A stretch of DNA of 64,000 nucleotides from an uncultured Candidatus Saccharibacteria bacterium. Its GTDB lineage: Bacteria > Patescibacteriota > Minisyncoccia > 2-02-FULL-40-12 > GWA2-44-9. The notes below the pieces were generated by a model that saw nothing but the letters and a program-made list of their open reading frames with translations, had not been told where the DNA came from and ran no database searches. Location of the stretch: NCBI GenBank assembly GCA_964436165.1, contig CAYTBY010000001.1, positions 6,777 through 70,776 of the forward strand. The letters run 5' to 3'. Below, in pieces: positions 1,828 through 49,632 of this stretch. The first letter of the stretch is position 1, and each line of letters begins with the position of its first letter. The translations under genes and the position numbers were made by a program.

Positions 1828-2466
1828 TCAGTATTTTTTTAGCAAAAATGCCGAATCAACATTATCACTGTTCAGATACTTGTATTTCTTTTCTTTTATT
1901 AGTTTTAGATCGATAAATTCATCCAGATACATTTTCGCAAAGTTGCCTTTCCAGAGACGGTTCTTGTGACCGCGATAGGTAATAGCTTGTGTCTGGGGGC
2001 TGAAATATTCAAATCCCCAGATGTATTTTCTTGATGTCCGGCAGATCTCTTTCATTATTTTTTTTATATCTTTAGGATTGATATGGATCAAAACTCCGGA
2101 AGTAAAAACAAGATCAAAATAATTGTCTTTGAACGGCAGGTCAAAAGCGCTTCCCTGAATGATGTTGATGTTTTTAGTATTTGTCTTTGCCAACTCCACC
2201 GCCTTAGGGAATATTTCAATTCCATATAGATTTTTAAATCCTTGCCCCTGAAGTATATTCAGCTGAACCCCAATATTACATCCCACCTCAAGAATGTTAT
2301 TTATTCCCAAATTCCCCAGAAAGTTTTTATTTAACCTCGAGCGAGAAATTCCAAAATTCCTAGTATAAAAATCATCCAGTTGTTTGGGAGAAAATGTATT
2401 CCTGTCTATATATTCTTGGCCGAAATTGGATGACCAAAATTTTTCCTGAATAGTTTGTTTCGTCAT
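1828..2466 (-). CDS. Class I SAM-dependent methyltransferase resembling the methylase associated with pseudaminic-acid clusters
   Basis: LEVGCNIGVQLNIL is a SAM motif I (hh[DE]hGxGxG-like). It has an acidic loop and an FDLVFTSGVLIHI motif. It overlaps the PseC-like gene by 4 nt (ATGA), so the two are translationally coupled. Confidence 0.55.
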   Translation of the reverse strand: MTKQTIQEKFWSSNFGQEYIDRNTFSPKQLDDFYTRNFGISRSRLNKNFLGNLGINNILEVGCNIGVQLNILQGQGFKNLYGIEIFPKAVELAKTNTKNINIIQGSAFDLPFKDNYFDLVFTSGVLIHINPKDIKKIMKEICRTSRKYIWGFEYFSPQTQAITYRGHKNRLWKGNFAKMYLDEFIDLKLIKEKKYKYLNSDNVDSAFLLKKY

Positions 2467-3623
2467 CTAAAGAAGTTTTTTATTTGATTGCAGATGTATT
2501 TTATGTTTTCTGGTTTTAAGTTCGGATAAAGGGGGAGAGTGATACAGGAGTTGTGATATATCTCTTCATTATTAAGCTTTATATTTTTGTGTCCGCTTTC
2601 TCTGTAATAGGGATGAGAGTATACGGCTGGATAGTGAAAATTTACACCGATACCCTGCCCCTTTAAATAAGATGCCAATTTATTTCGTATAGCCGGATTC
2701 TTCACTCTTATTACAAAAATGTGGTTGGCGGAAGTACCATCTTCAGTTGTCGAAGGAAGGACGATATCCTTTATGCTCTTTAATTTCTCAACATAAGCAT
2801 TAAAGATAGCTTGTCTTGCTTTTATAAATCCATCCAGTTTTTTAAGCTGGCTTAAGCCCAGGGCTGTTTGGATGTCAGTAAGTCTATAATTATGCCCTAA
2901 AGCAGTCATGACATTAAATCCGTCTTTATCTTTGTTTATTCCGTGGGACCGAAGATGTATTAATCTTTCGCAGTAGCTTTTATTGTTAGTTAATATTGCT
3001 CCGCCTTCACCGGTAGTGATTGATTTAACCGGATGAAAACTAAAAATAGTCATATCACCGATACTGCCTATTTTTTTGTTCTGATATGACGCCCCTAATG
3101 CATGACAGGCATCTTCGATAATCAGTAGTTTATATTTTTTAGCTACTTTGTTAATGACATCCATTTCGCAAGGATGGCCGGCAAAGTGAACGGGAACTAT
3201 GGCTTTTGTTCTGGGCGTGATCAGTTCCTCGATTTTGGATGCGTCTATATTATAATTATCCAGACGAATATCACAAAAGACCGGCTTGGCACCTACGGCC
3301 AGTAACATATTGGAAGTAGCAGCAAAGGTGTTGGGTGTAGTAATCACTTCATCGCCAGATTGGATATTTGCGGCTAAATAAGCTAAATGAAGGGCGGCGG
3401 TGCCACTAGAAACCGCAACAGCATAACTAGCTCCACAGTATTTAGCCAGAGCATTTTCAAATTCTTTTACTTTGGGACCCTGGGTCAGCCAATCGGATTT
3501 GAGAACGGCAATAACCGCCCTGATATCATCGGTATCGATTTTCTGGCGGCCATAGGGGATGAGAGTGTTTCCTAGGAAAGCGTTGGTTCTATTTTTGATT
3601 TGAGCTCTTGTTCTGTTAGCCAT
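2463..3623 (-). CDS. pseC: DegT/DnrJ/EryC1/StrS-family PLP-dependent sugar aminotransferase (PseC-like, UDP-4-keto-6-deoxy-HexNAc 4-aminotransferase)
   Basis: N-terminal LIPYGRQ. The block SSGTAALHLAY...DEVITTPNTF...IVPVHFAGH...EDACHALGA...FSFHPVKSITTGEGG contains the PLP lysine. The gene sits immediately downstream of the PseB-like gene. Confidence 0.8.
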   Translation of the reverse strand: MANRTRAQIKNRTNAFLGNTLIPYGRQKIDTDDIRAVIAVLKSDWLTQGPKVKEFENALAKYCGASYAVAVSSGTAALHLAYLAANIQSGDEVITTPNTFAATSNMLLAVGAKPVFCDIRLDNYNIDASKIEELITPRTKAIVPVHFAGHPCEMDVINKVAKKYKLLIIEDACHALGASYQNKKIGSIGDMTIFSFHPVKSITTGEGGAILTNNKSYCERLIHLRSHGINKDKDGFNVMTALGHNYRLTDIQTALGLSQLKKLDGFIKARQAIFNAYVEKLKSIKDIVLPSTTEDGTSANHIFVIRVKNPAIRNKLASYLKGQGIGVNFHYPAVYSHPYYRESGHKNIKLNNEEIYHNSCITLPLYPNLKPENIKYICNQIKNFFR

Positions 3624-4558
3624 GTATCGTTTGTATTACTGGCAAATGCGATATGGGTATTAAGCTTGGTGCCCATATCGAAGTAATGGTCAAAAAGTTT
3701 TGCCTTGGGTTTAAATTCGGGAAGAATGACAAAGTATCTATCCACTAATATAGTATTACGAGCCTCATGTTCAGTTAGGAGTGTCTCGTGGATTTTTTCT
3801 CCGGGTCGAATACCGATGATTACTTTTTTAGCCTGGGGGGCGAGAGCATCAAACAGTTCGGTGATTTTCATGCTGGGAATTTTGGGTACAATTATCTCTC
3901 CTCCGCCCATATGTTTAATAGCAAATGATACAAGTTGGAAGCTTTCCGGAAGAGTAAGCCAAAAACGGGTCATCTCTGGGTGGGTGATAAATACTTTTTC
4001 TGCCGCCGGTTTTTTTAGGAGGGTTTCAACGATACTGCCCCGGCTTCCCATTACATTACCGTAGCGCACGGCACTGAAGATACTACGTTTTGTAAGCGAT
4101 GTATAAGAATTTGCAGCTACAAAAAGTTTTTCGGCAGCCAGTTTAGTCGCTCCATACAGGTTGATTGGCTGAACCGCCTTGTCACTTGAGATGAGAAGCG
4201 TTTTTGAAACCTTTTGATCAATCGAAGCATCAATTATATTTTGCGAGCCGATTATGTTGGTTTTTACTGCTTCAAATGGATTGTACTCCAGCGTAGGAAC
4301 TTGTTTTAATGCGGCGGCATGGATAACCATATCTACGCCATAAAAGGCTCGCTGAAGGCGGGATAAATCCCGGACATCGCCGATAAAAAACCTAATTCGC
4401 GGATCACCTATCTCTTTTTGCATTTCATATTGCTTGAACTCGTCTCGACTGAAAATAATCAGTTTTTTTAGTTTGCTATTCTTAAGCAAAAATTTAGCAA
4501 AATTTTTGCCGAATGAACCAGTGCCGCCGGTTATAAGAATTGTCTTATTTTTAAACAT
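3572..4558 (-). CDS. pseB: UDP-N-acetylglucosamine 4,6-dehydratase of the PseB/FlaA1/CapE family
   Basis: ILITGGTGSFGK Rossmann motif, RDE(F)KQ.EM, DVRD, HAAALKQVP, PINLYGATK (YxxxK), and VRYGNVMGSRGS. Near-colinear with Helicobacter FlaA1/PseB from memory. Confidence 0.85.
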   Translation of the reverse strand: MFKNKTILITGGTGSFGKNFAKFLLKNSKLKKLIIFSRDEFKQYEMQKEIGDPRIRFFIGDVRDLSRLQRAFYGVDMVIHAAALKQVPTLEYNPFEAVKTNIIGSQNIIDASIDQKVSKTLLISSDKAVQPINLYGATKLAAEKLFVAANSYTSLTKRSIFSAVRYGNVMGSRGSIVETLLKKPAAEKVFITHPEMTRFWLTLPESFQLVSFAIKHMGGGEIIVPKIPSMKITELFDALAPQAKKVIIGIRPGEKIHETLLTEHEARNTILVDRYFVILPEFKPKAKLFDHYFDMGTKLNTHIAFASNTNDTWLTEQELKSKIEPTLS

Positions 4559-4570
4559 TGTCGTCTTTAA

Positions 4571-4610
4571 AGTCTATCAAATGGTGTCAAATAGTGTCAA
4601 ACGGTGTCAG
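4571..4610 (-). promoter_or_regulatory. Four tandem 10-bp direct repeats. The plus-strand consensus is nGTnTCAAA, which reads TTTGACAC on the minus strand. They lie immediately upstream of the pseB-like start and are a candidate operator/promoter.
   Basis: The repeats agtctatcaa / atggtgtcaa / atagtgtcaa / acggtgtcag have 10-bp periodicity. The same architecture recurs at 34697..34726. Confidence 0.45.
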
Positions 4611-4643: not shown

Positions 4644-5729
4644 TCAGGTAAAGGAATTCATTATCGGCTTAAAATCTTTGTAATACTTGGAGCTCGGCTC
4701 TAAGACCTCATAGTGTAAATATTTTTTGCCGGTTTTAAGGGGTTTTACTTTGGTTCTATATATTTTTTTGATAATCGGAAAAGTGCTGCCAATCATTGAT
4801 CTCAGGCGGCGGTAGCGGATTGAATACTGACTTTCGGGTTTTTGGGCTGATGGAAATTCATCGCCGAAGTCTTTAATCAACAGCCAATTAAGAAATCCCC
4901 AAAGAGCTTTACGAAATGCAGTTTTTGCTTCTTTCTCGCCAATACCGTCAACGGCCATTATTTCTTTAGCAAGAATATCCTCGGCCATTTTATAAGATTT
5001 ATACCAGTGTTCCTTCATTATCCAATCAAAGGCATTATATGTGGCGAGATGGCGGTTGTGTATCTGCCTGACCAGACTTAAACAATCAATAATTTTCGAC
5101 TTACCCCCGACAAGCAATAAAGCGCTGGGAACAACCTCGGTGGCTAGAGAACGGTCGGGAATATCTTTTCCAGCGAGCCAATATCTGCGCATGGGATCCA
5201 TACGATGGACAGAAAATCCAGGCGTATAATATTCTCGGAAAAATTTGACGACCCTTTCGGATGCCGTCTCAAGTTCAATTTGTTTTCTGGGGTAATCCGC
5301 GAGGTAGTTTAATTCGCCGTGAACGCCGTTATTCTTGAGGCGAAAGCTTACCGCATAGCCGCCGGCCGATGCATAATCCGGATGCTCTTCAAGAAATTCT
5401 GCGCACTTTGTAAGAGAATCGGGTATGAAATAATCATCATCGCCGATACTTGCGCCGTATTTTTCTTTTATTAAAGATACCAGGTCGTTATGGCTATCGA
5501 TTTGTGTGAAAGATTCAGATTCTCGATATAGTTTATAGATTACTTTTAATGCGCCCTCCAGTTTTTTAATTGCCGTCTGGATTTTATTGCCATGTTCTTC
5601 GTCACTGCCGTCGGCGATATACACCGGATGGGGGGAATTTACGGATGCATAGTACTCCAACTGTCTAATTACAAAATCAGACCGGTTGCGAGTCCTAAAA
5701 TATATAGCCACCAGGGGTTTATTATCCAT
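4644..5729 (-). CDS. Hypothetical protein with a GT-A-like N-terminus (putative glycosyltransferase)
   Basis: VAIYFRTRNR...YIADGSDEE resembles the GT2 motifs (IIPTYNR ... DDGS). The rest of the protein has no recognisable motif. Confidence 0.3.
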   Translation of the reverse strand: MDNKPLVAIYFRTRNRSDFVIRQLEYYASVNSPHPVYIADGSDEEHGNKIQTAIKKLEGALKVIYKLYRESESFTQIDSHNDLVSLIKEKYGASIGDDDYFIPDSLTKCAEFLEEHPDYASAGGYAVSFRLKNNGVHGELNYLADYPRKQIELETASERVVKFFREYYTPGFSVHRMDPMRRYWLAGKDIPDRSLATEVVPSALLLVGGKSKIIDCLSLVRQIHNRHLATYNAFDWIMKEHWYKSYKMAEDILAKEIMAVDGIGEKEAKTAFRKALWGFLNWLLIKDFGDEFPSAQKPESQYSIRYRRLRSMIGSTFPIIKKIYRTKVKPLKTGKKYLHYEVLEPSSKYYKDFKPIMNSFT

Positions 5730-7808: not shown

Positions 7809-9956
7809 TTAGTGATGGCCGGCAATTTCTTGGTGCGGGTTTTTATTGCCGTTATAGAGATAGGCACCTCGTCTATTGGAATACCAAACCATTTTCTGGT
7901 ACCAATCTTCCCATGTCGGCCACGTTTGAGATCTGCGGTCGATTGTGAATTCTTGAGGTTCATGAGCTAAAGGAATTTTTTGACCCACTAAAACCGATCT
8001 ATAAATACCCCAGGTATTGTAAGAAAGGCGGATACTTATATCTTCTGCCTGAAAAGGTATTTTTAGCAAATGGCGGTTGAGATTAATTGATTCTTCAAGG
8101 ATTTCGATCGGAACTTCAGAGTTTGACATCGCTAGATATCTCAAGAGCTGTCCGGCTTCTTTGTAAAAATCTTCGAGTTTACCTTCCCGGCACAGCTTAA
8201 TCAGGATATGTTCATCGGGCATCCAGTAGATTTTCAGCCACTCTTCCGAATATATGAATTCACCCTGCTTGCCTGCTTGAATGTCCCGGCCAGTTTGAGA
8301 GAAGAATCTGTTAATTTCTGAGAGTACCGGGAAATTGCCGTATTTTGAGAACTGATCAAAGCTGAAAAGTTCCAAGATCTGCCGATAACTAAAGCCATAA
8401 ACTTCGTGGAGGATAATTATGGGAATTTGAAGGAGTTTGCTGAAATAAAATAAGTTTACAGTCCAGCAAAGGATATATGTCTTAACCCAATCTTCGGGCG
8501 GCATAGTGTTGGTTCCAATGACGAATTCTTGTAATTCATCAATTCCGGTATCGGAGTCATTTTTACTGCCGTGAGCATTTATAATTTTTGTTTTTACCGT
8601 TTTGAATCCGTAGCGTTCCTGATATTCCCAATCCGCCATCTCGGTATTGCAAAGGATGGAAAGAATGTTGAACTGAATCCGATTATGCTGGCCGTTAGTA
8701 ATTAATGTTGCAATTCCGTCAAAAAAGGTATCGAATGTTTCCTCGGGCATGCCGGGGATCAGGTCGGTCATGGTAAAAATTCTTTGGGCAGCTAATTCTT
8801 TTTGAATTTCATAATATTGTTCCAGCTTCATGTTATCGCGTCTCACGGCTTTAAGGGTCGGAGGATTAAGTGATTGCTGTGACATTACGGTAGCTTTGTT
8901 GAGGCCGGCTCTTTCCAGGGCTTTTAGGGCTCTAATTGTGTGGGCTTTAGGATTTTTAGAATTCTGGGTTGAGACAGCTTCGGGATAGCCGTATTTTACT
9001 TTCGATTCGGCAAAGAATTCTGCAATTTGCTCGTCTCTTTCTTTGATGCCCCAGTTAGCATCGCAAATAAACCAGTAGGGAACTTTATGCTGTCCGCACC
9101 ACATGATGTCGTTGTATATTTGTGTCATTGGAAATTCGCTCACACGATCTTCTGTCGCTCCGCCCCAATCGCAATATGTGCATGAGAAAGGACAGCCCCG
9201 GTTAGTTTCGTACATTGTGATAAAAACCTGATCCGGATTCTCTTCGATCAACTTATCAAAAACCCCAGTTGTAAAAGGAGATGGTACTTCGGCTAATTCA
9301 TTGTTTTTCATCCGCTCGAGTTTGTTATTGTAACAGAAATTCCCATTTGCATCAGTATAGCTGATTGAAGGAATCAGTCTTTTATTATAGCATCCGTCGA
9401 TTGCCATTTGTTCAAGAATCTTTGTGAATACTCTTTCGCCCTCGCCGTGAACGCAAATATCTATTTCCGGATGAGCCCGATGATAATCAGGGGTAAAATT
9501 TATTCGCTGACGTTTTTGTTCTTCTGCCGTCAGCTCGGTTGTCCTGTTGAGGCGGAATTGCTTCTTACTGTCCGGAACTTGCGGTCCTCCAAAAACAAGA
9601 ATTCCATTCGGATTCCTTTTTTTATATTCCTGCCCCAAGACTAAGGAGTGCTGTTCTCCCCAGGTGTAATTTCCTACGCCAAGTATGTCGCATTCACTTA
9701 ATTTTTCACATATCTCATCAATCTCTCTCCGGTTCTTCGGGAACTTGTAAATTATTTCTTTGAATTCAAGATCGTCGGGATATGGAAAGTGCCGTTTCGC
9801 GTATGCCTGGATTAAACCAGCGGCAAAGGGAAAATAATATTGTCCGGAAAAAGACGTATTTAACTGTATTTGGCCGATCCTTATTTGCCCGTTAGGTTTC
9901 GGCACAATTCTAGGGGGATTTTCGGTCACCGTTTTGAGAGGAATTATAGATCCCAT
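7809..9956 (-). CDS. B12-binding-domain radical SAM enzyme (715 aa, paralog 1)
   Basis: CPFSCTYC has the CxxxCxxC radical SAM cluster motif. The N-terminal region is B12-binding-like. A C-terminal extension of about 250 aa is shared with 16508..18580. Confidence 0.75.
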   Translation of the reverse strand: MGSIIPLKTVTENPPRIVPKPNGQIRIGQIQLNTSFSGQYYFPFAAGLIQAYAKRHFPYPDDLEFKEIIYKFPKNRREIDEICEKLSECDILGVGNYTWGEQHSLVLGQEYKKRNPNGILVFGGPQVPDSKKQFRLNRTTELTAEEQKRQRINFTPDYHRAHPEIDICVHGEGERVFTKILEQMAIDGCYNKRLIPSISYTDANGNFCYNNKLERMKNNELAEVPSPFTTGVFDKLIEENPDQVFITMYETNRGCPFSCTYCDWGGATEDRVSEFPMTQIYNDIMWCGQHKVPYWFICDANWGIKERDEQIAEFFAESKVKYGYPEAVSTQNSKNPKAHTIRALKALERAGLNKATVMSQQSLNPPTLKAVRRDNMKLEQYYEIQKELAAQRIFTMTDLIPGMPEETFDTFFDGIATLITNGQHNRIQFNILSILCNTEMADWEYQERYGFKTVKTKIINAHGSKNDSDTGIDELQEFVIGTNTMPPEDWVKTYILCWTVNLFYFSKLLQIPIIILHEVYGFSYRQILELFSFDQFSKYGNFPVLSEINRFFSQTGRDIQAGKQGEFIYSEEWLKIYWMPDEHILIKLCREGKLEDFYKEAGQLLRYLAMSNSEVPIEILEESINLNRHLLKIPFQAEDISIRLSYNTWGIYRSVLVGQKIPLAHEPQEFTIDRRSQTWPTWEDWYQKMVWYSNRRGAYLYNGNKNPHQEIAGHH

Positions 9957-10020
9957 TTTTCCCTTAATTTTAAAGTTCTTGTCGTGTTATACCTTAAACT
10001 TCAAGTTTTGGCAAATTAAC

Positions 10021-10108: not shown

Positions 10109-11059
10109 CTACTTAACAAAAAACTCATTATTGTCTTTGTATATTTTACGGATTTGTTCCACCGTCCCTTGGCTTAGAGGCGGTAAATTTGAGACAACAG
10201 TATTTTCTAAAACATCACTTACCGTAAGCAGGCCGGGGATGACAGTGCTTACTCCGTCAGCACTTAAGCAATAACGCAAGGCCAACATGGCTAACGGATG
10301 TTCTGGGTCAACTTCTGATAGTAACCGAGCGGCTTTTTGCCAGGACTCCCTCTGTTTCATCGGCCAAACCGATCTGTGGTCCTGCGGACCAAAGTTCAGA
10401 TCCATAGTTTTTCCATTATCGGTAAGAAAGCCGAAATTTAAGGGCGTGCGTGCAATAATTCCTACGCCTTGATTCCTAGCCTTTTCTATGAGGCCGTTAT
10501 CAATCGCTCTCTGGTCAATCATGCTTAGGTTGGCCTGGATAGAAGCAAATAGGCTGTATTTTAGCGCTAGAAGACCCTGATTAGGATGTTTAACCGAAAC
10601 ACCGAAAGCTTTGACCAGTCCTCGGGTTTTTAATTCCAGCAAGGCGTCAACGATGTCGTCCATGGGCAAATTTTGAATGTCCGGATTATGAAGCTGGTAA
10701 AGATCGACATAACCTGTTCCTAGATTCTCCAGACTTCTTTGAAGGGTGGCGGTAATATTTTGTCTCGAAAAATTTTGGGGAGTGTGGTGTTCCAGAAATC
10801 CAACCTTGGTGCCGATGACTACTTGGCCGCGGCAGTGCCTAAAGGTCTTTCCAATGAGGTTTTCGCTATGGCCATAGACTCCGGCAGTATCGTAGTAAGT
10901 TACTCCCTGATCAAACGCCTTTTCCAGGGTTTTTTGAGATTCGTTGTCGTCGGTCGGTCCGTAAGAGGTAGGACCGGGAGTTACACCGCCGATGCCCCAA
11001 CCGCCAAATCCGATTTCTGATACCATAATCCCGGTTGATCCGAAAGGACGATATTTCAT
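10109..11059 (-). CDS. Aldo/keto reductase family oxidoreductase
   Basis: N-terminus MKYRPFGSTGIMVSEIGFGGWGIGG. It has AKR-type YDTA..YG and a C-terminal block. Confidence 0.8.
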   Translation of the reverse strand: MKYRPFGSTGIMVSEIGFGGWGIGGVTPGPTSYGPTDDNESQKTLEKAFDQGVTYYDTAGVYGHSENLIGKTFRHCRGQVVIGTKVGFLEHHTPQNFSRQNITATLQRSLENLGTGYVDLYQLHNPDIQNLPMDDIVDALLELKTRGLVKAFGVSVKHPNQGLLALKYSLFASIQANLSMIDQRAIDNGLIEKARNQGVGIIARTPLNFGFLTDNGKTMDLNFGPQDHRSVWPMKQRESWQKAARLLSEVDPEHPLAMLALRYCLSADGVSTVIPGLLTVSDVLENTVVSNLPPLSQGTVEQIRKIYKDNNEFFVK

Positions 11060-11859
11060 GCGATTCTCGCTTTGGAATTTCCACCATCAAGTAAAATCCA
11101 TTGTCCGGTAACAAAGTTAGCTTGTTTGGAAGCAAGGAAAACCGTCCAGTTTGCGGCATCTTCCTCCGTGCCCTGTCTGCCCATTGGAATTTTACTCACG
11201 ACTTCTTTCGTCATGATCTCGCGCGCTTCCGCAACCGAGATATTCTTAGTTTGCGCCCGATCCCTGACGTCTCTCTCCCAGGTATCACAAGTTAATGAGT
11301 GGGGTGCAATTGCATTGACACAGATGCCCTTGGGCGCAAGTTCGTTGGACCAACGTTTATTTAAGAAATCCATAGCCGATTTAGCGGCGCCGTAGTGAGG
11401 ATTGTTCCAGCCTGGTTCGCGGGTGCATTTTGTGCTGACATTTATAATTCTTGCTTGATCAGATTTTTCTAAGAGTGGGATGCTAAATTCAGTGAACCAC
11501 TGCATACTCAGAGTATTTAATTTATACATATTGATCCATTGTTCTTCGGTAAGGCCATAAAGCTGAAGTGGTTTTTCGGTACCGCCACCGATGTTGTTCA
11601 CGAGGATATCGAGTTTGTCGATGTTGCCCAGGAATCCTCGAACCTCTTCACGGTTTGTTCCATCAACACACTTGGAATGAACACTGCCTTCGAAGCCCAT
11701 GGCAGCAATTTCTTTATGGGTTCTCTTAAGTTTTTCAAGCCCCCTGGCGCATAAAATTATATCGCAGCCCTCTTTAGCTAAAGCGATTGCGCATGTCTTG
11801 CCTATACTTTGGCTTGAGCCGGTAATAAGAGCTGTCCTACCTTTTAGTCCAAGATCCAT
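11056..11859 (-). CDS. Short-chain dehydrogenase/reductase (classical SDR)
   Basis: ALITGSSQSIGK is a TGxxxGIG motif. NNIG is an NNAG-like motif. Catalytic motif HYGAAKSAM (YxxxK). Confidence 0.8.
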   Translation of the reverse strand: MDLGLKGRTALITGSSQSIGKTCAIALAKEGCDIILCARGLEKLKRTHKEIAAMGFEGSVHSKCVDGTNREEVRGFLGNIDKLDILVNNIGGGTEKPLQLYGLTEEQWINMYKLNTLSMQWFTEFSIPLLEKSDQARIINVSTKCTREPGWNNPHYGAAKSAMDFLNKRWSNELAPKGICVNAIAPHSLTCDTWERDVRDRAQTKNISVAEAREIMTKEVVSKIPMGRQGTEEDAANWTVFLASKQANFVTGQWILLDGGNSKARIA

Positions 11860-11918
11860 TTTTCCCCTCTTTTCAAAGTTCTTGGCGCGTATTGTATTTT
11901 ATTTATTACAATATGTCA

Positions 11919-20819: not shown

Positions 20820-20890
20820 AAAACCACCTCTTGATTTTCAAAGTTCTTTCCCTGTGTTATATGAAACTTTTACGAATTCGTCAAATAAAA

Positions 20891-20918: not shown

Positions 20919-20929
20919 AAAAACTATCA

Positions 20930-21142
20930 TAGGACTTACGCGTTTGCCCAAGATTGAGGCAAAATGCTTAAGTTTTTATGAGACGTACTAGGAGTACGAC
21001 GAGGAAAAACTTAAGTATTTTAACGACCGCGTGCCGCCTTAGCTTTAGCGGTGGCGCAAAAGATTGGGCAAACCTTTATGGCTTGAGCCACGTAAAGCCC
21101 TACTGATTTCGGGCTTCGTGGCTCAAGCGCGTAAGTCCTATA
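20930..21142. mobile_element. MITE-like structured repeat, copy B (about 213 bp)
   Basis: TA-GGACTTACGCG...CGCGTAAGTCC-TA termini. Interior nearly identical to copy C, plus about 30 extra bp. Confidence 0.5.
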
Positions 21143-21147
21143 TCAGA

Positions 21148-29627: not shown

Positions 29628-30611
29628 TCACATGTTGTAATAAATCACCTGGCTGCCCTGATTCTCAAATTTAAATGGAACATGAAGAAGTCTTTTTAAT
29701 TTTTCTTTGATCCGAGGTTGAATTTCGGGCGGGGCAAAAAATAATATAAATCCTCCTCCTCCAGCCCCCAACAACTTACCGCCAAGAGCGCCAGCTTTGA
29801 TGGCCGTGTCGTAAATTGCATCAATTCTGGGATTGCTTATTTTACTGGACAATTTTTTCTTATATTCCCAGCTTGTTTTTAGAAGTTTGCCAAAATCTTC
29901 AATGGGCTTTTCATCTTTAATAATTGAAAAACCTTCGCTAGCTATGGCGGTCATGATTTTTAGTTCTTCGTTGGTCTTTTTTATGTTTTTTATCTGTATT
30001 TTAGCGATCTCTGAAGCGTTGCGAGACAAGCCGGTAAAAAATAGCATACAATGGTCCTGAAGCAGGTTCAGGTGTTCTGGACGCATTATTATCGGTTGAA
30101 TGGAAATATGATGTGAGCCGCCGAAATCTATTTTATTAAAACCGCCGAAAGCTGCTGCTGTCTGGTCTTGCGAGCCGACATTTTCTTTGATCATATTCTG
30201 CTCAATGTGAATAGCTTCAAGCGCCAATTCTTTCTTGCTTTTCATTATGCCCTTTAGGCCATACAGGGCATTTATAAGTCCAACCGTAAATGACGAGCTA
30301 GAGCCTAGGCCTGATCTGGCCGGCAGATCGCCGTCATGATGGATTTCTAGTCCGTGGTCTATATTAATGAATCGGAGACATTCTCTGACCGAAGGGTGGT
30401 CAATTTTATTTATATCTTTGACATTCTCTGATTGAGAATAAACAATACGGTGTTTGTATTTAAAAAACGGCGGCAAAGGACGGCAAGTTATGTAGCAGTA
30501 TTTATCTATGGTCGTAGATAAAACAGTCCCGCCGTTCTCTTTGTACCAGCCGGGGTAATCGGTTCCTCCGCCGAAAAACGATATTCTAAAAGGTGTTCTG
30601 GTGATAATCAT
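29628..30611 (-). CDS. GHMP kinase, D-glycero-D-manno-heptose 7-phosphate kinase (HddA)-like
   Basis: GHMP ATP motif LPARSGLGSSSSF. N-terminus MIITRTPFRISFFGGGTDYP is typical of HddA and fucokinase. Confidence 0.7.
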   Translation of the reverse strand: MIITRTPFRISFFGGGTDYPGWYKENGGTVLSTTIDKYCYITCRPLPPFFKYKHRIVYSQSENVKDINKIDHPSVRECLRFINIDHGLEIHHDGDLPARSGLGSSSSFTVGLINALYGLKGIMKSKKELALEAIHIEQNMIKENVGSQDQTAAAFGGFNKIDFGGSHHISIQPIIMRPEHLNLLQDHCMLFFTGLSRNASEIAKIQIKNIKKTNEELKIMTAIASEGFSIIKDEKPIEDFGKLLKTSWEYKKKLSSKISNPRIDAIYDTAIKAGALGGKLLGAGGGGFILFFAPPEIQPRIKEKLKRLLHVPFKFENQGSQVIYYNM

Positions 30612-30665: not shown

Positions 30666-32639
30666 CTAATTCTCTAAATTCCTTGTATTTAATAGCCAAG
30701 CATATCCTCGCCAGCGGTCTTTTTTTGTGATTTCATGTAAAATCAAATCTCGGAAACCGGTTACTTCGCTTTCCACTGGCCAAATATTGCTAGTTCCCAT
30801 AGTTTTAAATTTAGCCGTGGCTATTTTCTCCATATCCCTTGTTTCCAGTAATTTATTTAGGACAGGGTCCTTGGTATAATCTCCGCCTTCGATTGCTTCC
30901 ATCTCCGTGTTCATATAAAGCGATTTACTGCTTGTACAAGGAATCACTATCCATCCGTTTTTAACATCAGCTATGCTGTTAATATAGTGCACAATATAGG
31001 GCGGCGCCATATCTTTGGGGGGCAGATAATCTGATTTTCCTATGCCATGAATTGCTTCTATGAAAGATTTATTATAGTTGGTGTTGTAAGTGTAAAATTC
31101 TTTTATTCCAAGGCGATCCAATGTGTTTATTAAGTTAGTCACGCTCATTCTTGCTGGATAAACATCTGAAAAAAATTTCCATAAATTCCAAACAAGAGCG
31201 ACCAAAATCAGGACTATAAAAATTGGGACACTCTTATCATAGAAAAATAATTGAATTAAATACGCACCACTACCGATAGCCAAAAAAATACCCACCAGTC
31301 CCGGAGAATATGTTCTGGAAAGCTGGGGAGCCTTGGTTATTTCTGCCCAAATAACAGGTGATAAGGAAAACAACAAAATTAAAACCATGCCCACTTCATT
31401 GAAAATTAAATTACCTTGCAAGAAAAAGGGAGAGACAATTAGGCCAATGGCAGAGGCTGTGAATATTATAGTATGAACGGGGACCATCCTAAAAAATACT
31501 TTTGGCAACCAAATTAACCCCGCTCCTTGGGTATAGCGAGTAACGGTCAAACCTTTCTTTGCGAAATAATCAACATATAGCCTGAAGTGTGATTTTTTTC
31601 TGATTTGAGTCTCCAGCAAAAATGCAAAGAAATATTTAAAACTTTTTTTAATATCCGGCAAGGTTAAAGTTAAAAAGCCGATAATGAATCCAATTAAAAT
31701 TAGTAAAAGATATCCCCAGCTGATCAGATTAACTAACAGTAATAAGGCGACAGTAGCATAAAGACCCCAGACAGTTAGTTGTTTGACTCTTTTGCGGGCA
31801 TGCTCTAAGTAGAAGTCTAAAGAAAATTTATCTCTCCCGCGGATTAGTTTATTTAGGAATCTTGGCGCTGTCTGATAGTATATTGAGGCAACTATTTTTT
31901 TATGGACAAGCCATAGAAAAACTATCGTTAAGCCGTATAAAATTAGCATTGTCATGTTAAATAATACCAATTGATTATTCCAGATTTGAGTATAAATATT
32001 ATCAAAAGCATTATTGGCGATTATTGTTCGGTGGCTTGAATAAAAAACAGCAGTAAAGAAGAGAGGTGTATATTTAATTGTTGAGGCAGAGGCAAATTGG
32101 GCAAAACAAAATATTATTCCTGCCCCGATTAGCCAGATGGCCGATTCCGGCCAACCGCCATTTGCTTGTTGTATAAACAGAACAGATAAGAGAAAAAGCA
32201 TGGTGGCTACATTGGCATGGCCTCCATAAAGAGCAACTTGCCAGCTCCATAGGGAAGTCAAGAATAGTATTCCTAGAAATAAAGCGATGGCAGGGTTCCA
32301 ATATCCAAGTGCGATAAGAAATATTAAAAATGAAGAAAAAGCGGTGGATATGCCGCCCAGGGCAGTATATGGATAATCTCCGGTTTTATTGCGAAATATT
32401 TTCTGAAAGACAGCCATCAGTATAATAGTCATATCTTTCATGCCAGTTTTTCCAAGGCCCATTTTATGTAAATCTGAAAACCATCGCCATCTTGAAGACG
32501 TCGCCGCGGCATAAGCCATTAGTTCGTTGTCGGTATTGGGACCATTGAATTGCACCCCGCGGACCAGGAACATAAAAATCAACGCTGCCATAGATGAAGA
32601 CAGGGCCATAAATATTATGCTGGTGATTGGATCTGACAT
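30666..32639 (-). CDS. Large polytopic membrane protein (657 aa) with a C-terminal soluble domain; putative glycan polymerase or GT-C-like transferase
   Basis: More than 12 hydrophobic segments. No diagnostic motif recognised. Confidence 0.3.
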   Translation of the reverse strand: MSDPITSIIFMALSSSMAALIFMFLVRGVQFNGPNTDNELMAYAAATSSRWRWFSDLHKMGLGKTGMKDMTIILMAVFQKIFRNKTGDYPYTALGGISTAFSSFLIFLIALGYWNPAIALFLGILFLTSLWSWQVALYGGHANVATMLFLLSVLFIQQANGGWPESAIWLIGAGIIFCFAQFASASTIKYTPLFFTAVFYSSHRTIIANNAFDNIYTQIWNNQLVLFNMTMLILYGLTIVFLWLVHKKIVASIYYQTAPRFLNKLIRGRDKFSLDFYLEHARKRVKQLTVWGLYATVALLLLVNLISWGYLLLILIGFIIGFLTLTLPDIKKSFKYFFAFLLETQIRKKSHFRLYVDYFAKKGLTVTRYTQGAGLIWLPKVFFRMVPVHTIIFTASAIGLIVSPFFLQGNLIFNEVGMVLILLFSLSPVIWAEITKAPQLSRTYSPGLVGIFLAIGSGAYLIQLFFYDKSVPIFIVLILVALVWNLWKFFSDVYPARMSVTNLINTLDRLGIKEFYTYNTNYNKSFIEAIHGIGKSDYLPPKDMAPPYIVHYINSIADVKNGWIVIPCTSSKSLYMNTEMEAIEGGDYTKDPVLNKLLETRDMEKIATAKFKTMGTSNIWPVESEVTGFRDLILHEITKKDRWRGYAWLLNTRNLEN

Positions 32640-34441
32640 TAGCGTATGTTATAAACTTTATAGAAATACGAGTCTTTATTTTTAAGCAGTTCTGCGGGTG
32701 ATCCTTGTTCTGTAACTGTACCACCGTTCATGACTATCAGGCGGTCTGAGCTTGTTACAGTTGAAAGGCGATGGGCAATAGCAATGACCGTAAGAGAGCG
32801 CTTTAATTCATCTATGGATTTTTGAATATGAACTTCTGATTCGTTATCTAAGGCGCTGGTAGCTTCATCTAGGATTAATATCTCCGGTTTTCTTAATAAG
32901 ACTCTTGCGAGGATGATTCTTTGGCGTTGACCGGCTGAAAGCTTAACACCATTTTCACCCACAAGCGTTTGGAATTTATCGGGAAGTTCGTTTATAAAAT
33001 CATAAGCTTGACTGATTTTGGCGGCTTCTGCTATCTCTTTTTTGGTAGCCATATCATTGTAAAATCTGATGTTGTTTTCTACCGTATCATTCAGTAAAAA
33101 TATCTCTTGCGAGACGTAGCCAACTTTACTGCGCCACTGAAATAAATCTATTCTTGAGATAGGCTTACCGTCGATAAGAATTTCTCCAGCTCCTAATTCA
33201 AATAGCCTTAGAAGGATATCAACCAACGTAGTTTTACCGACTCCGGATGGCCCGATTATGCCTATCATTTCACCGCGCTTTAATGAAAAGCTAAGATTAT
33301 TGAGGACTTTTACGTCATTGTTGTAGCCGAAAGTGATATTGTTAATTTCAAGTTTGTCTTTAAACTCAAATGATAAAATACCGGTATTGATTTCTTGGTG
33401 GCGGTCAGCCTCTTTTTCATAGTCTGAGATCACTTGCAGATATGGCAAAGCCTCATTGACGCCATTTAGTTGGGTGTGCATCGCCTGACTAAATGCAAGT
33501 ATTTTTTGAATTAAATATATTGTTGCAGCAAATGAAGCGATATTAAATTCTGTATTATAGAGATATTCAAATGCAAAAAGGCCTGAAATATAAAATAGTC
33601 CGACAGGTTCAATAAATGAACCAGGCGCTCGGTTGTAGGCCGCTATTTTGAGTCGTATCTGACGCAATTTTGCAAGGTATGAGTTGGTATGATCAATAAT
33701 CTGATCTTCTGTGGCGGTTACTTTAACTGTTTTTGAACCCAGGGCATGCTGACTGATATGATGATTTAAGCTTCTGTTAACACCAGATAATTTATGAGCC
33801 TCTTCTCTAATCCCGTACATCAGAGGCTTTACAAAAAGAAAGATTATTAAACTTACTACTAAGGTTAATATTGTCAGAGAGAGCGAGATATTAATTGCTA
33901 CGATCGTATATGCAATAAGACTCGTTAGAGTCATGATCATCGCATTGATAGTACCAAGAATTCCCGAACACGCATTAACGTCATACATTAATATTGATTC
34001 AAGGTGGCCGGTTTTTTGCTCCATCAGATAGGGCCAGTCTGCTTTTAAGGTCTTTTCGAACAATTCACTGCGCTTTTTCATCTCGTAGTCAGCGGAGACT
34101 TTTTCGTTGTAATAAAATGCACAATAAGTGATGATGCCTTTAAGAATAAACAAAACTAGCACTAAGCCTAGAACATAGAAAAGATTATAGGGTATATGAA
34201 AGAAAGCTAAACCATCTTGTATAAACTTAGATATACTATCCAACTCCTTAATGTTTACTCCTCCTCGACTTCCGACTAGGGCAAACAGGGGAATGACTGC
34301 TCCGATTCCAATACCACCGAATAAACCAGTTATGAACCCCAGGATTGTGGTAACGATAAATCTTCTGCGATAATACCAGAATGATGTCCGGATGATCTTT
34401 AGAGTATTTGTAATTTTTTGGGCGTCGATTAATGCGGGCAT
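32639..34441 (-). CDS. ABC transporter, fused permease/ATPase exporter (type I, MsbA-like)
   Basis: Walker A GPSGVGKTT, ABC signature LSAGQRQR, and Walker B ILILDEATSALD. The N-terminal domain has 6 TM helices. Confidence 0.85.
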   Translation of the reverse strand: MPALIDAQKITNTLKIIRTSFWYYRRRFIVTTILGFITGLFGGIGIGAVIPLFALVGSRGGVNIKELDSISKFIQDGLAFFHIPYNLFYVLGLVLVLFILKGIITYCAFYYNEKVSADYEMKKRSELFEKTLKADWPYLMEQKTGHLESILMYDVNACSGILGTINAMIMTLTSLIAYTIVAINISLSLTILTLVVSLIIFLFVKPLMYGIREEAHKLSGVNRSLNHHISQHALGSKTVKVTATEDQIIDHTNSYLAKLRQIRLKIAAYNRAPGSFIEPVGLFYISGLFAFEYLYNTEFNIASFAATIYLIQKILAFSQAMHTQLNGVNEALPYLQVISDYEKEADRHQEINTGILSFEFKDKLEINNITFGYNNDVKVLNNLSFSLKRGEMIGIIGPSGVGKTTLVDILLRLFELGAGEILIDGKPISRIDLFQWRSKVGYVSQEIFLLNDTVENNIRFYNDMATKKEIAEAAKISQAYDFINELPDKFQTLVGENGVKLSAGQRQRIILARVLLRKPEILILDEATSALDNESEVHIQKSIDELKRSLTVIAIAHRLSTVTSSDRLIVMNGGTVTEQGSPAELLKNKDSYFYKVYNIR

Positions 34442-34443: not shown

Positions 34444-34689
34444 TTACCAGTGTTTTATTCGTGATTTTATTTTTTTCTTCAGGTCTGAGTAGGCTCTAAC
34501 TGCCCTTCTTTCCATGCGGGGAGAGACTAATCTTAGCAGTTCTTTCCCCAGGACTCTATATTGACCGCCGACCTTATTAGCTCTAATCAAACCCTTTTTC
34601 AGGAGTCGTTTCAGGGTGCTGTTTGATATTTTTAGAAGTAACCTGGCTTCGTTAGTTGTGTAAACTTCGTTCGGATTTATATCTGGCAT
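34444..34689 (-). CDS. Small helix-turn-helix DNA-binding protein (excisionase/MerR-like HTH)
   Basis: LLKISNSTLKRLLKKGLIRANKVGGQYRV is an HTH pattern. 81 aa. Sits just downstream of the tandem repeat array. Confidence 0.45.
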   Translation of the reverse strand: MPDINPNEVYTTNEARLLLKISNSTLKRLLKKGLIRANKVGGQYRVLGKELLRLVSPRMERRAVRAYSDLKKKIKSRIKHW

Positions 34690-34696
34690 TCTCTAA

Positions 34697-34726
34697 ACGT
34701 ATCAAAAAGTGTCAAAAGGTGTCAAA
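34697..34726 (-). promoter_or_regulatory. Three tandem 10-bp direct repeats (acgtatcaaa / aagtgtcaaa / aggtgtcaaa), the same motif as at 4571..4610
   Basis: Read directly from the sequence. On the minus strand they read TTTGACAC / TTTGATAC. Confidence 0.45.
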
Positions 34727-39517: not shown

Positions 39518-39575
39518 AAGATTTAGGATAAATATTATCTGTTCAACTGACAATATTGACGCCCACACTCATCTG

Positions 39576-49478: not shown

Positions 49479-49632
49479 GGCAAAATGCTTAAGTTTTTAT
49501 GAGACGTACTAGGAGTACGGCGAGTAAAAACTTAAGCATTTTAACGAAAAGATTGGGCAAACCCTTGCGGCTTGAGCTACGCTAAGCCCTATAGATTTTG
49601 GGCTTCGTAGCTCAAGCGCGTAAGTCCTATAT
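49451..49632. mobile_element. MITE-like structured repeat, copy C (182 bp)
   Basis: TA|GGACTTACGCG...CGCGTAAGTCC|TA termini. Three nested stem-loops, including a perfect 17-bp inverted repeat AAAATGCTTAAGTTTTT/AAAAACTTAAGCATTTT and a 12-bp inverted repeat GCTTGAGCTACG/CGTAGCTCAAGC. Confidence 0.55.

What the first reader, a model, noticed from the sequence alone, without database searches (positions are those of the whole stretch)
4571..4610. Tandem 10-bp TTTGACAC-type direct repeats upstream of two separate sugar operons
Four helical-turn-spaced repeats (agtctatcaa / atggtgtcaa / atagtgtcaa / acggtgtcag) sit 13 nt upstream of the pseB-like ATG. A near-identical trio (acgtatcaaa / aagtgtcaaa / aggtgtcaaa) sits at 34697..34726, upstream of the HTH-ABC exporter-GHMP kinase genes.
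On the coding (minus) strand each unit contains TTGACA, so these could be phased -35-like elements. More likely they are a binding array for one transcription factor that co-regulates both glycan operons.
Basis: seen in the sequence. Interest (0 to 1): 0.55.

Follow-up and report, generated by a model that had tools for sequence, protein, structure and literature searches.

The report
Promoter-embedded repeat operator of glycan operons
The 10-bp TTGACAC repeats are a real control element, conserved across the candidate phyla radiation (Patescibacteria): each array forms the core promoter of a surface-sugar operon and probably also the docking site for the small BldC-like DNA-binding protein encoded next to one of the two arrays.

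Summary
There are four phased 10-bp units at 4571-4610 and three at 34696-34725, giving 5 tandem matches against 0.2 expected, and none elsewhere in the window.

The window comes from a Patescibacteria (CPR) glycan island. All 10 independently fetched orthologues of the 81-aa HTH_17 gene carry the same 3-unit TTGAYAC array before the gene or its operon. Two truncated pattern scans added about 60 non-redundant cases. They also showed recurrent arrays before PseB (as here), PseC/DegT, PseF-like, WbuZ-like, GalE-like and ATP-sulfurylase-fusion genes.

The array overlaps the promoter: one unit is a perfect -35. In this window's class the last unit (TGATAnnnT) is an extended -10, and the start codon often sits at the predicted transcription start, so the mRNA would be leaderless.

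The HTH_17 protein's predicted fold best matches BldC, which binds direct repeats head-to-tail. My best reading is a composite promoter-operator bound, probably repressively, by this autoregulated protein. Binding itself is only inferred.

The main rival is MraZ. The reverse complement of the unit (AARGTGTCAA) fits the MraZ-box consensus, and identical-looking arrays precede mraZ in other phyla. No CPR array found here lies next to mraZ.

I found no prior description. I rate it a new variant of a known kind.

The parts
4571..4610 (-). Array 1: four 10-bp head-to-tail units. Unit 1 is CTGACACCGT (4610-4601), unit 2 TTGACACTAT (4600-4591), unit 3 TTGACACCAT (4590-4581), unit 4 TTGATAGACT (4580-4571).
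   Evidence: Three-unit arrays of the same kind precede PseB genes in L127, L180, L213 and L217.
4595..4600 (-). Predicted -35 hexamer TTGACA (start of unit 2 of array 1).
   Evidence: The promoter scan gives TTGACA, an 18-bp spacer, then TAGACT with TG before it, 10 of 12 matches.
4571..4579 (-). Predicted extended -10, TGATAGACT (inside unit 4). The inferred transcription start is near 4564, leaving a 6-nt leader.
   Evidence: Consensus of 78 arrays of this class is TTGATACnnT, with T at the last hexamer position in 67 of 78. The transcription start is inferred, not mapped.
3572..4558 (-). pseB, UDP-GlcNAc 4,6-dehydratase (inverting). First gene downstream of array 1.
   Evidence: NCBIfam TIGR03589 PseB, 429 bits against a cutoff of 408. 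Pfam Polysacc_synt_2.
2463..3623 (-). pseC aminotransferase, overlapping pseB in the same transcription unit.
   Evidence: TIGR03588 PseC, 454 bits against a cutoff of 423.5.
1828..2466 (-). Pseudaminic-acid-associated methylase, next gene in the run.
   Evidence: TIGR03587, 196 bits against a cutoff of 112.
4644..5729 (-). TIGR04440-type glycosyltransferase upstream of array 1. Array 1 is therefore an internal promoter in a long minus-strand gene run. In other contigs this gene family is itself preceded by an array.
   Evidence: 133 bits. L140 and L169. No terminator-like site lies between this gene and the array.
34696..34725 (-). Array 2: three units. TTGACACCTT (34725-34716), TTGACACTTT (34715-34706), TTGATACGTT (34705-34696).
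   Evidence: Conserved upstream of orthologous HTH_17 genes.
34687..34725 (-). Predicted promoter of the HTH operon: -35 TTGACA (34725-34720), 18-bp spacer, TG (34704-34703), -10 TACGTT (34701-34696), then TAGAGA. The A of the ATG (34689) falls at the expected +1, so the mRNA would be leaderless.
   Evidence: The same geometry is seen in L045, L078, L124, L158, L250, L252, L256 and L258. The scan tool instead proposes unit 2, a 16-bp spacer and GAGAAT, which would start inside the ORF. The transcription start is inferred.
34444..34689 (-). 81-aa HTH_17 (MerR/excisionase-like winged helix) protein. Candidate array-binding regulator, apparently autoregulated.
   Evidence: Pfam PF12728, E = 1.3e-10. 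1217 homologues; the 120 listed are 67% or more identical, and every hit named by a source is from Patescibacteria. AlphaFold2 model, pLDDT 76.7. Best Foldseek match is BldC-DNA, 6ama_B.
32639..34441 (-). HepA/MsbA-like fused ABC exporter. It starts 2 nt after the HTH stop codon, so it is co-transcribed.
   Evidence: The HTH-ABC gene order is conserved in L001, L003, L247, L252 and L258.
30666..32639 (-). 657-aa polytopic membrane protein with no family match. A 655-aa protein, also with no Pfam hit, sits in the same slot in L001.
29628..30611 (-). GHMP kinase, HddA-like (below the curated cutoff). Conserved last member of the HTH operon.

Best explanation
Each array is a composite promoter-operator.

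(1) Promoter (inferred). In this window one unit supplies a consensus -35 (TTGACA). Two units downstream, the TTGATA-type unit supplies an extended -10 (TGnTAnnnT) across an 18-bp spacer. Transcription would then start at the ATG of the HTH gene (leaderless) and about 6 nt before the pseB ATG.

(2) Operator (inferred). The phased repetition is not needed by RNA polymerase: the unit lying in the spacer is kept, as are extra upstream units. I read it as the binding site of the 81-aa BldC-like HTH_17 protein, with one protomer per 10-bp unit, head-to-tail, covering -35 to -10.

(3) Direction (inferred). These are near-consensus promoters, and the regulator's own gene carries the site. Binding therefore most likely represses by excluding RNA polymerase, which would make it negative autoregulation. 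The alternative is MerR/BldC-style remodelling of the 18-bp spacer to activate. I put this at roughly 60:40 in favour of repression.

(4) Regulon. It covers the HTH-ABC exporter-membrane protein-GHMP kinase operon and the pseudaminic-acid genes (pseB-pseC-methylase). In relatives it also covers PseF-like, WbuZ-like, GalE-like, glycosyltransferase and ATP-sulfurylase-fusion genes. In short, it controls cell-surface glycan synthesis and export across Patescibacteria.

Shown: the sequence, its conservation, its gene associations, its geometry, and the fold similarity. Inferred: promoter activity, leaderless starts, which protein binds, and the sign of regulation.
For: - Non-random arrays found only at these two sites.
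- Unbiased sample, loci fetched by protein rather than by motif. All 10 distinct HTH_17 orthologue loci (window, L001, L003, L247, L250, L252, L254, L255, L256, L258) have a 3-unit array before the gene or its operon. Of the 30 units, 26 fit TTGAYAC exactly. The spacer unit is TTGACAC or TTGATAC in all 10.
The genome scan gave 20 loci with an HTH_17 orthologue as the first downstream ORF, plus L012, L093 and L117 with it as the second gene. Together with the metagenome scan and the two protein-fetched loci held at that point (L001, L003), there are 59 non-redundant HTH-linked arrays.
- Recurrent non-HTH targets: PseB 5, PseF-like 5, pyruvate-kinase-barrel/PUA/ATP-sulfurylase fusion 5, GalE-like 3, DegT/PseC 3, WbuZ/HisF-like 3, TIGR04440 glycosyltransferase 2.
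- Promoter reading. One search gives TTGACA, 18 bp, TG-TAGACT. Other promoter-like regions in the window pair TTGACA with TAnnnT about 17 bp away, with unrelated spacers and Shine-Dalgarno leaders (read by eye). In 45 non-redundant class-A arrays the start codon begins 6-7 nt after the putative -10 in 16 cases and 6-12 nt after in 24. In class-B arrays a TATAAT-like box follows unit 3, 16-18 bp from unit 2 (counted by eye).
- The protein. HTH_17. The AlphaFold2 model has a beta-alpha-alpha-beta-beta winged helix plus two C-terminal helices. The top Foldseek hit in the PDB is BldC bound to direct-repeat DNA: rmsd 1.8 Å over 52 columns, target-normalised TM-score 0.75. BldC binds 2-4 direct repeats head-to-tail (PMC5859096).
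- Not phage-borne: 3 hits in 2.9 million viral contigs.
Against: - There is no binding data of any kind.
- The unit's reverse complement, AARGTGTCAA, fits the MraZ box (AAAGTGKN3)3. Indistinguishable arrays lie upstream of mraZ in about 21 Desulfuromonadales loci, one Ruminococcus locus and two Victivallales loci. Some Parcubacteria do encode MraZ.
- BldC repeats are 9 bp and AT-rich (AATTxxxxC), not 10-bp TTGAYAC. No sequence-level similarity to BldC or any PDB chain is detectable. Foldseek E-values are weak (0.01-0.1).
- The C-terminal helices resemble GlnR/MerR-type extensions, and those proteins bind inverted repeats.
- At site 2 the proposed -10 (TACGTT) matches only 3 of 6 positions. The scan tool prefers a different, ORF-internal arrangement.
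- The pattern scans force all three units to match, so only the 10 protein-based loci count as unbiased evidence of conservation.
Confidence: 0.58

Rival explanations
1. The arrays are MraZ boxes. MraZ, the AbrB-like regulator of the division/cell-wall (dcw) gene cluster, binds three or more direct repeats with a 10-nt period. In CPR its regulon would have expanded to envelope-glycan operons, and the HTH_17 gene would be just another target.
For: - The unit's reverse complement, AARGTGTCAA, matches (AAAGTGKN3)3 from Mollicutes (PMC5282649).
- Arrays meeting the same search pattern sit directly upstream of mraZ-rsmH in about 21 Desulfuromonadales loci and in L087, L073 and L233.
- Three units is the typical number.
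- MraZ (PF02381) is annotated in Minisyncoccus archaeiphilus and in a Nealsonbacteria-like genome.
Against: - No array in a CPR-type locus from the two scans (roughly 100-120 arrays, my estimate) or the protein-based loci is adjacent to a MraZ or RsmH gene. Yet mraZ-linked arrays from other phyla were picked up readily by the same scans, and MraZ autoregulation is the rule.
- The most conserved array-bearing gene is the HTH_17 gene, in 10 of 10 loci.
- In the unbiased 30 units, the position that varies (C or T at position 5, 16 versus 14) lies in the GTG core that MraZ boxes keep. The invariant TTGA falls on the K and N3 positions, the degenerate part of the Mollicutes consensus.
- In CPR the orientation is always opposite to that at mraZ.
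- The Saccharibacterium Southlakia has no annotated MraZ, while other Saccharibacteria carry arrays (L045, L078, L117).
Confidence: 0.15
2. The arrays are only strong sigma-70-type promoters, with a -35 and an extended -10 for leaderless transcripts. The repetition would be incidental, or would serve RNA polymerase itself, and there would be no dedicated regulator.
For: The unit equals the -35 consensus, and the last unit forms TGnTAnnnT. The start codon clusters at the predicted +1.
Against: - The unit in the spacer, which polymerase does not read, is TTGAYAC in 10 of 10 unbiased loci across distant CPR classes.
- Extra upstream units occur: 4 at site 1, 6 in L074.
- The array shifts by exactly one unit relative to the -10 between the two HTH subfamilies.
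- Other promoter-like regions in the window have unrelated spacers.
- The arrays are confined to one functional gene set.
Confidence: 0.1
3. The arrays are the operator of another regulator, for example an OmpR/PhoB-type response regulator binding pho-box-like direct repeats that overlap the -35.
For: Response regulators of this type bind 10-11-bp direct repeats at -35 (general knowledge; also discussed in PMC5859096).
Against: No such gene is conserved next to the arrays in any locus examined. The gene most consistently linked is the HTH_17 gene.
Confidence: 0.08
4. The arrays are recombination-directionality (Xis-type) binding sites at the end of a mobile element, given that HTH_17 is the excisionase family.
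For: HTH_17 is the excisionase family (JGI names). In Bacteroidota, similar arrays lie near an integrase-like gene (L114, judged from its N-terminal sequence only) and near weak HTH_17-like ORFs (L017, L055, L047).
Against: No integrase was seen among the annotated genes in the window or in the CPR loci examined. The chromosomal gene order with ABC exporter and GHMP kinase is conserved across classes. The arrays keep a fixed distance to the start codons of biosynthetic genes. They are almost absent from viral contigs.
Confidence: 0.03

Closest known systems
BldC (Streptomyces), founder of the BldC family of MerR-like winged-helix regulators (PMC5859096; PDB 6ama, 6amk)
   Same: It is a small winged-helix protein with no effector domain. 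It binds a variable number (2-4) of direct repeats as head-to-tail multimers at promoters. It is the best structural match of the 81-aa protein.
   Different: The BldC repeat is 9 bp, AATTxxxx(C), read largely through minor-groove shape. Here the repeat is 10 bp with an invariant TTGAYA core that doubles as the -35 or -10. There is no detectable sequence similarity. The CPR protein has about 30 extra C-terminal residues forming two helices. Binding here is untested.
MraZ boxes upstream of the dcw operon: E. coli TGGGN x3 (from memory) and Mollicutes (AAAGTGKN3)3
   Same: Three direct repeats with a 10-nt period. The reverse complement of the CPR unit fits the consensus. Identical-looking arrays precede mraZ in Desulfuromonadales, Ruminococcus and Victivallales.
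   Different: The CPR arrays are never next to mraZ or rsmH in the data held. Their orientation relative to the regulated gene is opposite. They overlap -35 and -10 instead of lying in the leader. Their variable position falls in the MraZ GTG core.
Pho boxes bound by PhoB (OmpR family)
   Same: Phased direct repeats that occupy the -35 region of regulon promoters (from general knowledge).
   Different: Pho boxes replace a poor -35 and activate. Here the unit is a perfect -35. No response regulator is linked.
Lambda Xis, RdfS and other HTH_17 excisionases
   Same: Same Pfam family or fold (RdfS is rank 21). They assemble cooperatively head-to-tail on tandem sites (general knowledge; PMC11963761 abstract).
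   Different: Those act at att sites of mobile elements together with an integrase. Here the context is a conserved chromosomal biosynthetic operon.
TnrA/GlnR (small MerR-type regulators)
   Same: Second-best structural match, including the C-terminal helix (7tea_C). Their half-site TNACA (from memory) resembles the TGACA core of the unit.
   Different: They bind inverted repeats (TGTNA-N7-TNACA) as dimers and respond to glutamine synthetase.

Membership tests
BldC-family regulator with direct-repeat operator | Small single-domain MerR-like winged helix without an effector domain | tested here: met
   81 aa. Pfam HTH_17 only. AlphaFold2 winged-helix model. Top Foldseek hit BldC, target-normalised TM-score 0.75-0.83, rmsd 1.3-1.8 Å. 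It has two extra C-terminal helices that BldC lacks.
BldC-family regulator with direct-repeat operator | Detectable sequence homology to BldC | tested here: not met
   phmmer and a profile hmmsearch against all PDB chains, which include 6ama and 6amk, gave no hit at E <= 10. Foldseek identity is about 21%.
BldC-family regulator with direct-repeat operator | Operator made of a variable number of direct repeats at target promoters, including key regulon genes | tested here: met
   Arrays of 3, 4 or 6 units lie at the regulator's own gene and at sugar genes. This is association only.
BldC-family regulator with direct-repeat operator | 9-bp repeat AATTxxxx(C) | tested here: not met
   The unit is 10 bp, TTGAYACYTT.
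BldC-family regulator with direct-repeat operator | Head-to-tail cooperative binding with DNA distortion | not testable with these tools
   Needs EMSA, footprinting or a co-structure.
MraZ box | Three or more direct repeats, 10-nt period, GTGK core | tested here: inconclusive
   The period and copy number fit, and the consensus unit fits AAAGTGT-CAA. But 14 of 30 unbiased units have GTA instead of GTG.
MraZ box | Located at the mraZ/dcw promoter (autoregulation) | tested here: not met
   No MraZ or RsmH ORF in the window or in any CPR locus held. The non-CPR mraZ arrays were found by the same scans.
MraZ box | MraZ encoded in the same genome | not testable with these tools
   Only 64 kb of this genome is available. 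MraZ exists in some Parcubacteria and is not annotated in one Saccharibacterium.
Sigma-70 promoter with extended -10 | TTGACA-like -35, a 17±1-bp spacer, TGnTAnnnT | tested here: met
   Site 1 scores 10 of 12 with TG. At site 2 the -35 is perfect, TG is present, and the -10 matches 3 of 6 (read from the sequence; offers another arrangement). Consensus.
Sigma-70 promoter with extended -10 | Mapped transcription start | not testable with these tools
   No RNA data. The only support is that start codons cluster at the predicted +1.
Xis/excisionase site of a mobile element | Adjacent integrase and att boundaries | tested here: not met
   No integrase among the annotated genes. The chromosomal gene order is conserved. 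3 hits in viral contigs.
JUMPstart/ops antitermination element of polysaccharide operons | ops core GGCGGTAG in the 5' leader on the coding strand | tested here: not met
   Neither intergenic region contains it. The only GGCGGTAG nearby (about 4808-4815) is on the + strand inside the ORF 4644-5729.

The most novel reading that the evidence does not exclude
Patescibacteria, which have very few transcription factors, would use one highly conserved 81-aa BldC-like protein as a phylum-wide master switch for surface glycosylation (pseudaminic acid and other glycans, plus their export). Its operator would be built from -35-like hexamers, so that the regulator and sigma factor compete for the same bases on promoters of leaderless mRNAs. 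The resemblance to MraZ boxes would then be convergence, or reuse of an ancient repeat grammar.
Probability: 0.4. Interest if true: 0.75.

Novelty: new variant of a known kind. Interest (0 to 1): 0.62.

Why it matters
Gene regulation in the candidate phyla radiation is almost unexplored. These organisms have tiny genomes, few regulators and mostly cannot be cultured. Their surface glycans are likely central to attachment to host cells.

A conserved, easily recognised promoter-operator, with a named candidate regulator, gives a directly testable regulon. It can be tested by EMSA with an 81-aa protein, by reporters in E. coli, and by re-analysis of metatranscriptomes. It also gives a sequence tag for finding co-regulated surface-glycan genes in CPR metagenomes.

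There is a practical point for annotation. Gene callers sometimes start the HTH gene inside the array.

The finding also warns that MraZ-box-like repeats outside dcw operons need not belong to MraZ. Conversely, if they do, MraZ regulons may be broader than thought.

Tried and rejected
- Chance or low complexity: rejected.
- Structured RNA or tRNA: Rfam at gathering thresholds and ARAGORN found nothing in the window.
- JUMPstart/ops: the motif is absent from both leaders.
- Phage or mobile-element origin: 3 viral hits only.
- Sequence-level link to solved structures: none.
- The Desulfuromonadales array family: Rfam found nothing. It turned out to be mraZ promoters.
- Obtaining a CPR mraZ locus, to see what lies upstream, failed.
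  - A viral-contig scan with a MraZ profile found nothing.
  - No dcw gene is present in any CPR locus held or among the ten right-hand window proteins checked.
  - A database protein search would list only close relatives of a non-CPR query, so I did not run it.
- Literature searches for CPR with pseudaminic acid, leaderless mRNA or MraZ gave nothing relevant.
- Supplements of two CPR genomics papers are not held as text.

Full report
**1.

On the minus (coding) strand, site 1 (4610-4571) reads CTGACACCGT TTGACACTAT TTGACACCAT TTGATAGACT. Twelve nt then separate it from the ATG at 4558. Site 2 (34725-34696) reads TTGACACCTT TTGACACTTT TTGATACGTT, followed by TAGAGA and the ATG at 34689.

The single heptamer is not over-represented: 7 matches against 4.1 expected. 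The tandem pattern is: 5 matches against 0.20 expected, 0 of 100 shuffles reach 5, and all 5 fall in these two sites.

Both arrays lie in short gaps (85 and 52 bp) inside long runs of minus-strand genes. No terminator-like site lies upstream of either.

**2. Context**

The window is a large glycan-biosynthesis island.
- Site 1 is followed by PseB, PseC and a pseudaminic-acid-associated methylase. All three score above NCBIfam cutoffs. It is preceded by a TIGR04440 glycosyltransferase.
- Site 2 is followed by four genes: an 81-aa HTH_17 protein, a HepA/MsbA-like ABC exporter starting 2 nt after its stop codon, a 657-aa membrane protein, and an HddA-like GHMP kinase. It is preceded by GmhA.

The HTH protein has 1217 database relatives. 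The 120 listed are 67% or more identical, and every hit that carries a source name is from Patescibacteria: Yanofskybacteria, Nealsonbacteria and 'Patescibacteria group'. The organism is therefore a CPR bacterium, probably a parcubacterium.

**3. The array is conserved, judged first without motif bias**

I fetched loci by exact HTH orthologue protein, not by DNA motif. Nine further distinct loci all show three phased units.
- Eight have them right before the HTH gene: L001, L003, L247, L250, L252, L254, L256 and L258.
- One (L255) has them before a two-gene operon, a cytidylyltransferase-like gene followed by the HTH gene.

With the window that makes 10 of 10.

Across the 30 units:
- Positions 1-4 (TTGA) and position 6 (A) are each kept in 29 or 30 of 30 units.
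- Position 7 is C in 28 of 30.
- Position 5 is C in 16 and T in 14.

The unit that falls in the promoter spacer is TTGACAC or TTGATAC in every case. HTH-ABC-GHMP kinase gene order is also conserved.

In two database entries the called HTH protein starts inside the array (P0010, P0102). Their N-termini, MTPFDTFW and MTLIDTLSF, are translations of the repeats.

**4. Pattern scans: large but motif-biased, and truncated at about 120 rows each**

In species-representative genomes, 20 loci have an HTH_17 orthologue (phmmer E 1e-26 to 1e-36) as the first downstream ORF. These come from Saccharibacteria, Komeili-, Taylor-, Campbell-, Buchanan-, Nealson- and Magasanikiibacteria and Paceibacterota. Three more (L012, L093, L117) have it as the second gene.

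Adding the metagenome scan and the two protein-fetched loci then held (L001, L003), 59 non-redundant arrays are HTH-linked.

Arrays recur before the same other families on independent contigs:

| Family | Arrays |
|---|---|
| PseB (including this window) | 5 |
| PseF-like cytidylyltransferase | 5 |
| Pyruvate-kinase-barrel/PUA/ATP-sulfurylase fusion | 5 |
| GalE-like epimerase | 3 |
| DegT/PseC aminotransferase | 3 |
| WbuZ/HisF-like | 3 |
| TIGR04440 glycosyltransferase | 2 |

There are also single cases, such as a KdsC-like phosphatase and, judged from its N-terminal sequence only, a NeuC-like epimerase.

Viral contigs hold only 3 matches, so the element is not phage-borne.

**5. The array is also the promoter**

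At site 1 the scan tool finds TTGACA (unit 2), an 18-bp spacer, then TAGACT preceded by TG. That is an extended -10 formed by unit 4. At site 2 the same register gives TTGACA (unit 1), 18 bp, then TG-TACGTT. The A of the ATG then falls exactly 7 nt after the hexamer.

Across 78 non-redundant arrays of this 'class A' type the consensus is TTGACACcttTTGACACtTTTTGATACnnT.

Among the 45 non-redundant arrays meeting a stricter T-rich-linker pattern that also have a clear downstream ORF, the start codon begins 6-7 nt after the putative -10 in 16. It begins 6-12 nt after in 24, and closer than 6 nt in only 2.

A second HTH subfamily (82 aa, N-terminus M.EEIK.NAVYTT) has 'class B' arrays. There a TATAAT-like box follows unit 3, at 16-18 bp from unit 2, and the ATG again lies within about 0-3 nt of the predicted start (spacings counted by eye).

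So the array sits at about -35/-25/-15 in one class and -45/-35/-25 in the other, shifted by exactly one unit.

Other promoter-like regions in the window show TTGACA and TAnnnT about 17 bp apart, with unrelated spacers, Shine-Dalgarno sequences and ordinary leaders (read by eye). RNA polymerase does not read the spacer. Its conservation as a full unit, the conserved unit upstream of the -35, and arrays of 4 units (site 1) and 6 units (L074) all argue for a second reader of the DNA.

**6. Who reads it?**

*HTH_17 protein.* The standard comparative argument points here. The regulator's own gene is usually the most conserved member of its regulon, and this gene is the one always linked to an array.

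Its AlphaFold2 model (pLDDT 76.7) is a beta-alpha-alpha-beta-beta winged helix plus two C-terminal helices. The best PDB match by Foldseek is BldC bound to direct-repeat DNA: 6ama_B, rmsd 1.8 Å over 52 columns, probability 1.0, but E only 0.012. GlnR, NmlR, RacA and the excisionase RdfS follow.

BldC binds 2-4 direct repeats as head-to-tail multimers and distorts the DNA (PMC5859096).

The differences are real:
- BldC repeats are 9 bp and AT-rich.
- No sequence similarity to any PDB chain is detectable.
- The CPR protein has a conserved basic C-terminal extension.

I therefore file it as 'works like BldC', not as a proven family member.

*MraZ.* This rival emerged from the scans. About 21 Desulfuromonadales loci share a three-unit array immediately upstream of a 147-149-aa MraZ gene, followed by rsmH. 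MraZ genes also flank arrays in a Ruminococcus locus and two Victivallales loci.

The published Mollicutes MraZ box is (AAAGTGKN3)3 (PMC5282649). The reverse complement of the CPR unit, AARGTGTCAA, fits it. MraZ is annotated in at least two Parcubacteria-type genomes, though not in the Saccharibacterium Southlakia.

Against MraZ in CPR:
- No array in a CPR-type locus held lies near mraZ or rsmH, although the same scans readily found mraZ arrays elsewhere.
- The orientation relative to the gene is opposite.
- The one variable unit position (C or T at position 5) lies in the GTG core that MraZ boxes conserve. The invariant TTGA falls on the K and N3 positions, the degenerate part of the Mollicutes consensus.

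I could not fetch a CPR mraZ promoter, which would be the decisive comparison.

**7. Mechanism I commit to**

The array is a composite promoter-operator. RNA polymerase uses one unit as the -35 and, in this window, the TTGATA unit as an extended -10. That produces a leaderless HTH-operon mRNA and a pseB mRNA with about a 6-nt leader.

The HTH_17 protein polymerises head-to-tail on the 10-bp units across -35 to -10 and competes with polymerase. This gives negative autoregulation and co-repression of the pseudaminic-acid and glycan-export genes. Activation by remodelling the 18-bp spacer, in the MerR/BldC manner, is the alternative sign.

My confidence levels:

| Claim | Confidence |
|---|---|
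| Conserved regulatory element marking a glycan regulon | about 0.9 |
| It is the core promoter | about 0.7 |
| The binder is the HTH_17 protein | about 0.6 |
| The binder is MraZ | about 0.15 |
| Binding represses rather than activates | about 0.6 |

**8. Novelty**

Full-text searches found no paper linking CPR with this motif, this protein, pseudaminic-acid regulation or leaderless promoters.

The kinds of part are known: direct-repeat operators, BldC-like and MraZ-like binders, extended -10 promoters. What is new is the combination. The operator is made of -35-like hexamers that also serve as the promoter. It is conserved phylum-wide and controls surface-glycan genes. I therefore rate it a new variant of a known kind.

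Noticed in passing
window 36299-39568 (-): The GDP-mannose 4,6-dehydratase gene encodes 1089 aa. The dehydratase domain is split into three stretches by inserts with LAGLIDADG_3 and Intein_splicing hits, which suggests one or two inteins. An orthologous intein-bearing dehydratase lies near the HTH gene in L254.
   Followed up: partly
window 20924-21143 and 49445-49632: An intergenic repeat of about 190-220 nt, 88-94% identical between copies. It has terminal inverted repeats (TAGGACTTACGCG...CGCGTAAGTCCTA) and an internal hairpin. One copy carries a 32-nt insertion. It looks like a MITE (miniature inverted-repeat transposable element). A possible partial copy (AAGCGCGTAAGTCCTA) lies just upstream of the gene ending at 16253.
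   Followed up: partly
window about 9957-9990, 11860-11890, 20820-20860 (-): A shared leader motif (C)AAGAACTTTGAAAA...GG(G/T)...AAAA-ATG lies upstream of a radical-SAM gene (7809-9956), an SDR gene (11056-11859) and a DegT aminotransferase gene (19635-20819). A looser version precedes the radical-SAM gene 16508-18580. It may be a second conserved 5'-UTR or regulatory signal in the island.
   Followed up: no
L013, L015, L028, L069, L077, L083, L092, L099, L110, L118 and about 11 metagenome loci: In Desulfuromonadales, a near-invariant promoter (TTGACA, 17 bp, TATATT) is followed by three GTGTCAA units at 10-bp spacing that abut the ATG of mraZ, with rsmH next. These are presumably MraZ autoregulatory boxes. 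Similar arrangements occur in a Ruminococcus locus (L087) and two Victivallales loci (L073, L233).
   Followed up: partly
L012 (about 880-1600), L117, L043: In some CPR genomes a 23S_rRNA_IVP (four-helix-bundle) gene sits directly after the array. In L012 and L117 it lies between the array and the HTH gene, as if inserted into the leader of the HTH operon.
   Followed up: partly
P0010 (L254 1501-1782), P0102 (L258 1501-1773): Public gene calls start the HTH protein at a TTG inside the array. This gives spurious N-terminal extensions (MTPFDTFWYFLR..., MTLIDTLSF...) that are translations of the repeat units.
   Followed up: yes
L114, L017, L055, L047, L025, L031, L075, L102: In Bacteroidota, tandem TTGAYAC-type 10-bp arrays lie near an integrase-like gene (L114, judged from its N-terminal sequence only) or near weak HTH_17-like ORFs (L017, L055, L047). 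They may be arm or Xis sites of integrative elements, a separate use of similar repeats.
   Followed up: no
L169, L229, L174 (downstream of the arrays): A conserved stretch of about 30 nt (tggtaggttattcattttattttt) follows the array in several contigs before different genes. It may be a shared leader element.
   Followed up: no
window 26628-26847 and 28489-28708 (+): Two 73%-identical segments lie in neighbouring ORFs. Homologous positions in relatives carry CTP_transf_like genes, so these look like paralogous cytidylyltransferase-like genes. The window ORFs themselves were not scanned.
   Followed up: no
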